A stretch of DNA of 64,000 bases. Source: Eledone cirrhosa. Its lineage: Eukaryota. The stretch spans positions 35,650,001 through 35,714,000 of the forward strand of contig OZ024747.1 in NCBI GenBank assembly GCA_964016885.1, given 5' to 3'. Below the pieces are notes generated by a model, which worked only from the letters and a program-made list of their open reading frames with translations, ran no database searches and was not told where the DNA came from. The position numbers and the translations under genes are program-made. Below are positions 40,226 to 41,081 of the stretch, in pieces (position 1 is the first letter of the stretch; each line of letters starts with the position of its first letter).

Positions 40226-41081
40226 AATAAAGAATTTATATCTAGTAACATATATATACATAAAAATGCATATCGATGCTAGCAAATATATAGGTTTTGT
40301 CTTAATAACATCGTGGTTCAATGCATGGGGTTGCAGAACAATAATATAAGAGACGTAAGATAAGAAAATTATAAAATTAACTTACTTACTAAAATATCAC
40401 TTCCAACTAATTAGTTTCTGGAATGGAGTAGATACATCTTCCGAAGAAGGTGTAGGGAAACATCCCGTCATCAGGAAAGTCTATTCTCATATAAGTTTCC
40501 AGGCAAAGCGAGGACTAAGTAAGTTAATTTTATAATTTTCTTATCTTACGTCTCTTATATTGTTGTTCTGCAACCCCATGCATTGAACCACAATGTTATT
40601 AAGACAAAACCTATATATTTGCTAGCATCGATATGCATTTGTATGTATATATATGTTACTAGATATAAATTCTTTATTATTATCTCTAAAATATTTGTCG
40701 AGCAATACTGGCCATGACTGCTGCTACGGTAGTAGGCTGGCCGCTGTCTTATTAACAACCCACTTTCCACCGATTGACCTCGATGTCACGTGTTCGATTC
40801 TTTTTGAATTTGCCACAGACACAGAGGCAGTGATTTTCTCAATGGCTAGGAAGTAAGTCCACGCTTTGCTTTTTCCTATTCACTGATTTATTTTTTAATA
40901 AGCTTCCAGAGTCCTCGCTTTGCCTGGAAACTTATATGAGAATAGACTTTCCTGATGACGGGATGTTTCTCAACACCTTCTTCGGAAGATGTATCTACTC
41001 CATTCCAGAAACTAATTAGTTGGAAGTGATATTTTAGTAAGTAAGTTAATTTTATAATTTTCTTATCTTACGTCTCTTATA
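40226..41081 (+). mobile_element. Family B subfamily: inverted segment plus terminally redundant 522-nt monomer
   Basis: 40226-40516 is inverted; 40517-40559 recurs at 41039-41081; HHRs at 40399-40480(-) and 40946-41027(+). Confidence 0.88.
40946..41027 (+). ncRNA. Type I hammerhead ribozyme with cUUCGg-capped helix II
   Basis: actttc CTGATGA c gggatg..acaccttc-ttcg-gaagatgt..cattcc a GAAAC TAATTA GTT ggaagt. Confidence 0.9.

What the first reader, a model, noticed from the sequence alone, without database searches (positions are those of the whole stretch)
40226..41081. Diverged family B subfamily shows covariation and a permuted, terminally redundant monomer
Seen: versus 7774-7853, the paired regions change on both sides (gcaatg/cattgc to gggatg/cattcc; acagtt/aactgt to acaccttc/gaagatgt with a cUUCGg loop; helix I ctcc/ggag to actttc/ggaagt) while CTGATGA and GAAACTAATTAGTT are invariant. 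The plus-strand copy runs one full 522-nt circuit plus about 43 nt and ends at a different point in the unit than the 7591 array. Inference: selection on the ribozyme fold, and reverse transcription around a circular (or multimeric) template.
Basis: partly seen in the sequence, partly recalled or inferred. Interest (0 to 1): 0.85.

Follow-up and report, generated by a model that had tools for sequence, protein, structure and literature searches.

The report
Two-armed Penelope-type hammerhead retrozyme insertion
This is one copy of a young, non-coding 522-base repeat carrying a predicted self-cutting RNA motif, sitting in a TA microsatellite as two back-to-back arms that end at two fixed points, and its relatives indicate that both arms were likely copied from one RNA, probably a circle, by the enzyme of a Penelope-type jumping gene.

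Summary
The sequence facts mostly hold: a 522-nt circuit plus an identical 44-nt overlap, and real covariation in hammerhead helix II (one pair shows all four Watson-Crick types). Helix I shows no double change. Among 78 insertions, 125 of 141 arms end at one of two sites (unit 45 or 165) against (TA)n. This locus is head-to-head: an inverted arm ends at 165, the forward arm at 45. Head-to-head copies use one site each in 45 of 46 cases, the known Penelope 'tail at one end', here 120 nt and structured. A circular template is still favoured, on other evidence: 95 of 125 arms read through a ribozyme cut site, and repeated passes within one insertion share variants, in two cases unique in the genome. 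Some arms stop at the cut site, so linear templates also serve. Verdict: a new family of animal non-LTR retrozymes with a pseudoknotted Penelope-type hammerhead, likely moved by Neptune-like Penelope elements; partner, cleavage and circles not shown. The scan reported the two-fixed-end layout before on other DNA.

The parts
40105..40226 (.). (TA)n target microsatellite, left
40226..40516 (-). Inverted arm, unit positions 395 to 165; its 3' end (site 2) abuts the left (TA)n; differs from the forward arm at 5 of 322 compared letters
40399..40480 (-). Hammerhead motif of the inverted arm; predicted cut between 40405 and 40404
   Evidence: motif positions; cut site inferred from the type I consensus
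40515..40517 (.). Head-to-head junction of the two 5'-truncated arms, about 1 nt of microhomology
40516..41081 (+). Forward arm: one 522-nt circuit (40516-41037) plus 44 nt; 3' end (site 1, unit 45) abuts the right (TA)n
40560..40680 (+). 120-nt 'tail' between the two fixed ends; two predicted hairpins (40565-40588, 40614-40667), the longer with 3 doubly changed pairs
40938..40942 (+). 5' strand (GAGAA) of a predicted pseudoknot with 40967-40971 (TTCTC) in the internal loop of stem II
   Evidence: 95.6% of cells paired, one double change
40946..41027 (+). Type I hammerhead of Penelope style: helix I 40946-51/41022-27, CUGAUGA, extra C before G10.1, helix II 40960-65/41001-06 with extension and UUCG loop, extra A, 2-bp helix III in a 12-nt palindrome; predicted GUU cut after 41021
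40972..40972 (+). Hypervariable unit position 457 at the pseudoknot/helix junction; discordant inside 9 of 36 insertions that cover it twice
41078..41137 (.). (TA)n target microsatellite, right
7591..9033 (-). Sister-subfamily array used for comparison: 539-nt monomer, 3' end at site 2, 5' end about 9 nt after a cut-site position, with an unrelated repeat inserted at about 8450-8636

Best explanation
This is a non-coding, head-to-head insertion of a high-copy hammerhead repeat in (TA)n whose two arms end at two fixed sites, likely made when a Penelope-type enzyme cut both strands of the microsatellite and primed one cDNA at each site on one RNA, probably a 522-nt circle. Shown: the layout, the two fixed ends used one per arm, read-through of the cut site, shared variants between passes, covariation. 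Inferred: (1) a source locus with two tandem ribozymes is transcribed, cut and ligated into a monomer circle, while some RNA stays linear with its 5' end at the cut; (2) a Neptune-like RT/GIY-YIG protein, probably a dimer, binds the structured 120-nt tail and primes one DNA end at each foot of it; (3) both cDNAs run back round the template, often beyond one circuit, stop at varying points and are joined head-to-head by microhomology. This copy has one ribozyme per strand, so it could not release a monomer itself and is likely a dead end.
For: Fixed ends: 63 arms at unit 38-47, 62 at 159-169, 16 elsewhere, of 141 arms in 78 insertions. One site per arm: 32 of 33 in the position-ordered set (p 4e-9) and 45 of 46 overall; 8 more two-armed loci have one damaged end. 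None of the first 100 of 3,791 clan-wide site-1 junctions has a head-to-head site-1 partner in the listing (read by eye). Same two ends in other subfamilies. ORF-bearing Penelope-like families in this genome show the same rule: 6 of 6 inverted arms ending in (TA)n lack the 35-40-nt tail, 3 of 3 in a second family; their ORFs have RT, GIY-YIG and a CX4CxxC linker. Read-through: 95 of 125 arms cross a cut site, 22 cross two. One template: lineage markers agree between arms in 17 of 18 and between circuits in 6 of 6 comparisons, against 10.5% between loci; rare variants are shared as often between circuits (12 of 5,772) as between arms (25 of 10,314), L111 left out. In L145 and L067 variants present in every pass occur nowhere else in the assembly. 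Two-site internal initiation and cutting of both strands are reported in vitro for a Penelope-like protein (PMC11167929).
Against: No RNA data: expression, cleavage and circles are untested. 5' ends are enriched just after the cut site (17 of 89 arms, 2.7-fold, p 7e-4) and more so at the second encounter (10 of 31 against 14 of 109, p 0.016; only 5 of 22 against 12 of 75, p 0.53, in the unbiased set), which fits linear, partly cut multimers; AT-rich microhomology may also contribute. No arm exceeds about 970 nt. The circuit-sharing counts are small (3 loci for markers). The hammerhead fold is not the minimum-energy fold (-11.1 against -14.8 kcal/mol; z 0.13) and has a GUU site. PMC11167929 found uncut RNA to be the main substrate in vitro. 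No autonomous element sharing sequence with the unit was found among 72 loci picked for Penelope-like sequence. Two RNAs from the same source locus cannot be told from one molecule.
Confidence: 0.6

Rival explanations
1. Same enzyme and same two priming sites, but the template is a linear, mostly uncut multimeric transcript of a tandem source array; circles play little or no part.
For: 5' ends pile up just after the cut site, including copies where both arms stop there (L122, L021); termination rises after one circuit (0.53 against 0.19-0.22 per 100 nt), as finite templates would give; Penelope hammerheads cut poorly (PMC4209133) and uncut RNA was the main substrate in PMC11167929.
Against: Circuits within an arm are no more different (0.92%) than the two arms (1.11%) and share rare variants in 9 loci; L145 has no difference over 522 positions read twice or more, yet carries variants unique in the genome. 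Multimers must therefore be re-made from one monomer often, which a purely linear cycle does not do.
Confidence: 0.3
2. The layout arises at the DNA level: satellite-like tandem duplication, fold-back inversion in (TA)n and gene conversion between arms, with no paired priming.
For: Inverted and tandem copies can homogenise; (TA)n is fragile; no target-site duplication can be read inside (TA)n.
Against: Does not explain two fixed, different ends in 45 of 46 head-to-head copies, the same rule in ORF-bearing elements, or dispersal over many contigs at 98-99% identity.
Confidence: 0.05
3. One reading: reverse transcription starts at arbitrary points on a circle, giving many permutations with short overlaps.
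For: Terminal overlap of 44 nt in this copy; 5' ends are scattered.
Against: 125 of 141 arms have one of two 3' ends; overlaps range from none to over 400 nt.
Confidence: 0.02
4. Fold-back artefact of long-read assembly.
For: Inverted duplications beside long microsatellites are a known artefact class (own knowledge).
Against: The arms differ in sequence (5 of 322 letters) and end at different fixed sites; the pattern repeats at dozens of loci and in other families.
Confidence: 0.01

Closest known systems
Animal non-LTR retrozymes (Cervera and de la Pena 2020, PMC7229834, passages read; Li, Clavereau and Pollet 2026, bioRxiv 10.64898/2026.07.22.740005, parts 1-3 of 5 read)
   Same: Non-coding, low-GC (0.36) repeat with a type I hammerhead per unit, monomers to short arrays, thousands of motifs; proposed circular intermediate and Penelope dependence.
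   Different: 522-nt unit is above the 170-400 nt of the 2020 paper (inside the 51-972 of the 2026 one). The text I read of either paper does not describe head-to-head arms, two fixed ends or (TA)n targeting. Expression and circles are shown there, not here.
Endonuclease-bearing Penelope-like elements, Neptune type (Arkhipova 2013, PMC3846280; Craig 2021, PMC8557442; passages read)
   Same: Partial tandem plus inverted 5'-truncated copy, tail present at one end only, microsatellite bias, hammerhead in the repeat.
   Different: No ORF; the tail is 120 nt, not 30-40; no sequence match to a sampled autonomous family.
PAc Poseidon in vitro system (Frangieh 2024, PMC11167929, parts 1-2 of 4 read)
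   Same: Two internal initiation sites downstream of the hammerhead cut that define the tail; AT-rich target cut and extended on both strands; predicted dimer.
   Different: That paper saw no difference in start site between strands, whereas genomic copies here use one site per arm; it used linear RNA and saw no need for cleavage.
Penelope-type and pseudoknotted hammerheads (Cervera 2014, PMC4209133, passages and Discussion; Perreault 2011, PMC3088659, passages)
   Same: Extra base between 9 and 10.1, G10.1-C11.1, long helix II, palindromic loop III for dimeric folding; pseudoknots between stems I and II are common in hammerheads.
   Different: Here these come together with an extra A before G12, a two-tier stem II, a GUU site and a pseudoknot from the stem II internal loop; Rfam gave no match at gathering thresholds.

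Membership tests
Animal non-LTR retrozyme | Type I hammerhead in each repeat unit | tested here: met
   Motif in every complete unit seen; covariation; no Rfam hit
Animal non-LTR retrozyme | Short low-GC tandem unit, no coding capacity | tested here: met
   521-571-nt monomers, GC 0.35-0.38; no ORF of 130 aa listed here and no Penelope protein remnant (best E 0.25)
Animal non-LTR retrozyme | Two consecutive ribozyme-bearing units (Li 2026 definition of an active copy) | tested here: not met
   This copy has one ribozyme per strand; 22 of 125 arms in the family cross two cut sites, so the family meets it and this copy does not
Animal non-LTR retrozyme | Self-cleavage of the RNA | not testable with these tools
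   Only indirect: 5' ends enriched after the predicted cut
Animal non-LTR retrozyme | Expression as linear and circular RNA | not testable with these tools
   No RNA holder listed
Animal non-LTR retrozyme | No LTR, primer-binding site or polypurine tract | not tested
   No LTR layout seen in mapped copies, but no tRNA primer search was run
Penelope-like element (EN+) | Partial tandem with inverted 5'-truncated copy | tested here: met
   54 of 78 insertions two-armed
Penelope-like element (EN+) | Tail at one end only | tested here: met
   45 of 46; length 120 nt rather than 30-40
Penelope-like element (EN+) | Microsatellite insertion bias | tested here: met
   Arm ends abut (TA)n; 3,791 site-1/(TA)n junctions, control 0
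Penelope-like element (EN+) | RT plus GIY-YIG ORF | tested here: not met
   None in the unit: it works like one but is non-autonomous
Non-autonomous derivative of a named Penelope family | Sequence shared with the terminal repeat of an autonomous element | tested here: inconclusive
   No homology in sampled loci; one weak alignment reached by 2 of 200 shuffles; two direct fusions with different families

The most novel reading that the evidence does not exclude
Each two-armed insertion is a multi-pass record of a single circular RNA, and the variants shared by all passes but absent elsewhere in the genome (L145, L067) arose on the RNA itself, meaning these circles replicate RNA-to-RNA in an animal germ line, viroid-style, before a Penelope enzyme writes them into DNA. 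The ordinary reading is that their source loci are simply missing from this assembly.
Probability: 0.08. Interest if true: 0.85.

Novelty: new member of a known kind. Interest (0 to 1): 0.48.

Why it matters
How Penelope-like elements make their tandem-plus-inverted insertions, and whether the hammerhead and a circular RNA matter, is open: the circle was proposed in 2014 (PMC4209133) and the 2024 in vitro study found cleavage dispensable. This young, ORF-free family gives thousands of natural products in which each arm's start site and each pass over the template can be read. It yields two sharp predictions: one start site per DNA end, and monomer-to-multimer regeneration at copying. It also links retrozymes to Penelope enzymes by insertion chemistry, not only by co-occurrence or terminal-repeat similarity. 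The element class and the layout are already known, which caps the score.

Tried and rejected
Rfam at gathering thresholds: no match. RNA runs: no RNA holder listed; laying three contig runs of unrecorded kind showed only that relatives are present, nothing on expression. Metagenome contigs: 0 matches to the core pattern. Autonomous partner by sequence: none among 20 GIY-YIG loci plus L149 and L150, 30 loci of one family and 20 long-ORF loci; retrozyme pieces seen there (L108, L180, L207) were not followed up beyond the match and look like neighbours in shared microsatellites. L1-style twin priming, where one arm stops at the other's start: 9 of 94 ends within 15 nt, 5.6 expected, no support. 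A-to-I editing footprint: shared variants A>G 10 against T>C 9, none. Two-type covarying pairs are common by descent (219 of 12,075), so single such pairs, including the one pseudoknot double change, are weak alone. L111's 22 'rare' variants mark a sister subfamily and were left out of the counts quoted. The hammerhead energy used a helix off by one and is replaced. One search used a wrong pattern (0 hits), replaced. Substitutions at unit 506-508 (8 of 372 against 7 of 1,860 beside them, p 0.001) are post hoc and not used as evidence.

Full report
Observation. The stretch 40226-41081 lies between two (TA)n tracts. Self-comparison shows two arms: a forward arm 40516-41081, one 522-nt circuit plus an identical 44-nt overlap, and an inverted arm 40226-40516 covering unit positions 395 to 165. 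I number the unit from 40516. Each arm has a type I hammerhead core; the predicted cut on the forward arm is after 41021 (unit 506/507). Rfam gives no match. The 7591 array is about 70% identical. The genome is 3.0 Gb; a cephalopod host is my guess, not a call result.

Family. A core pattern matches 8,986 times in the genome, control 0; a marker of this subfamily matches 259 times. The 40 best-scored relatives are 98-100% identical. Eleven distinct cut-to-cut monomers of 521-571 nt were found.

Covariation. On 18 representatives that I chose from 27 clusters (junction chimeras and near-duplicates left out), my structure pairs 96.4% of cells with 31 two-sided changes; no shuffle of 500 reaches this and slid controls give 0-5. 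The structure was derived from these sequences, which favours it over slid controls. A control that keeps relatedness: among 12,075 pairs of variable columns in 10 monomers, only 40961:41005 in helix II has all rows paired with four Watson-Crick types; on the tree this needs at least three double changes. Two-type pairs arise in 1.8% of pairs, so they are weak singly. Additional features: a likely pseudoknot, GAGAA at 40938-42 with UUCUC at 40967-71 (95.6% paired, one double change); an extra C before G10.1 and a palindromic loop III, both typical of Penelope hammerheads that act as dimers (PMC4209133, passages and Discussion); pseudoknots of this role are common (PMC3088659, passages). The hammerhead fold lies 3.7 kcal/mol above the minimum without the pseudoknot.

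Ends. I mapped 78 unique insertions: 55 from the first 100 of the 259 marker matches in genome order (set B) and 23 from best-hit searches. I dropped repeat fetches, four segmental duplicates, three loci of other subfamilies, and for the pair count stray fragments in L085 and L089. Of 141 arms, 63 end at unit 38-47, 62 at 159-169 and 16 elsewhere; 54 loci are head-to-head. Where both outer ends are at a fixed site, they are different sites in 32 of 33 (set B, p 4e-9) and 45 of 46 overall. Other subfamilies end at the same two motifs, 3,791 site-1 junctions with (TA)n exist clan-wide, and none of the 100 listed has a head-to-head site-1 partner. So the many-permutation prediction fails; the 7591 array ends where this locus's inverted arm ends. 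The 120 nt between the sites fold into conserved hairpins (98.3% paired, 8 two-sided cells, 0 of 500 shuffles, though only 3 pairs).

This is the Penelope signature: partial tandem, inverted truncated copy, tail at one end, microsatellite bias (PMC3846280 and PMC8557442, passages), with the tail equal to the stretch between two internal start sites in vitro (PMC11167929, parts 1-2 of 4). The genome holds young RT plus GIY-YIG elements with a Neptune-type cysteine linker. In one family 6 of 6 inverted arms ending in (TA)n lack the tail (the query selected for a tailed main arm; four other inverted pieces were cut off or internal); in another 3 of 3, and its hammerhead shares the mismatch at the base of helix II, palindromic loop III and a cut after U. 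No family shares sequence with the unit, and the two direct fusions (L023, L054) involve different families and could be nested insertions with deletion. The partner is unnamed.

Template. Both start sites lie only 61 and 181 nt after the cut, so a cut linear monomer cannot give long arms; 95 of 125 arms cross one cut site and 22 cross two. Within an insertion, letters read twice differ at about 1%, between insertions at 2.1%. Lineage markers agree between arms in 17 of 18 and between circuits in 6 of 6 comparisons against 10.5% between loci; without L111, rare variants are shared at 0.21% between circuits and 0.24% between arms. L145 has no discordance over 522 positions and its marker occurs four times in the genome, all in that insertion; L067's occurs twice, once per arm. 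Multimers are thus re-made from one monomer often, which a circle does by itself. Against this: 5' ends are 2.7-fold enriched in the 29 nt around and after the cut (17 of 89 arms), more at the second encounter in the full set (10 of 31 against 14 of 109) but not significantly in set B; some copies have both arms stopping there; no arm exceeds about 970 nt. A mix of circular and cut linear templates fits best; I put about 2 to 1 on circles over uncut multimers for the long arms. Gene conversion and two RNAs from one source cannot be excluded.

Known versus new. It files as an animal non-LTR retrozyme (PMC7229834, passages; bioRxiv 10.64898/2026.07.22.740005, parts 1-3 of 5), with cleavage and circles untested and this copy failing the two-unit test for an active source. 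A circular template for Penelope elements was proposed in 2014. Seven searches listed no paper on this family, on one start site per arm, or on multi-pass variant sharing; the library lacks most subscription papers and I read no supplements, which may list such families. Earlier notes of this scan, seen only after my analysis, report the two-fixed-end layout here and in other genomes; they are not independent support. What this window adds is the template-level evidence, the pseudoknot and the structured tail. Interest 0.48.

Noticed in passing
window 40972 (unit 457): Three to four alleles recur on both marker haplotypes and differ inside 9 of 36 insertions covering it twice, against 184 of 14,936 overall; it can pair either in the pseudoknot or in the helix II extension. 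Possibly a copying-error hot spot; unexplained.
   Followed up: partly
window about 43700-43480, minus strand: Fragment of the terminal repeat of an ORF-bearing Penelope-like family with a minimal hammerhead at 43565, running into a different RT-like reading frame (43512-42457).
   Followed up: partly
window 23031-25612, minus strand: Broken Penelope-like RT/GIY-YIG coding remnants, about 48% identical to L149 in the endonuclease part.
   Followed up: no
window about 8450-8636: A roughly 190-nt repeat with at least ten copies in the window is inserted into the 7591 array.
   Followed up: no
L023:1286-2013 and L054:1298-1611: Direct fusions of retrozyme and Penelope terminal-repeat sequence with no TA spacer; template switch or nested insertion with deletion.
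   Followed up: partly
L171-L200 (L150 family): A young ORF-bearing family whose terminal repeat has a hammerhead-like stem but a non-canonical core in nearly all copies.
   Followed up: no
L204, L208, L210, L201 (L149 family): Arms appear to end at one point only, including both arms of head-to-head L204, so the one-site-per-arm rule may not hold for every family.
   Followed up: no
L011, L012, L017-L019, L029 (G000:C1:349.32-349.39 Mb): Two insertions repeated three times in a tandem segmental duplication of about 25 kb.
   Followed up: no
window 45865-46641: 202-bp tandem repeat, 3.9 copies, 93% matches.
   Followed up: no
A3 alignment of 10 monomers: Predicted consensus structure extends over the whole unit: 109 pairs, 17 with a two-sided change; circular folds have z -1.6 to -6.7 against 25 shuffles.
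   Followed up: partly
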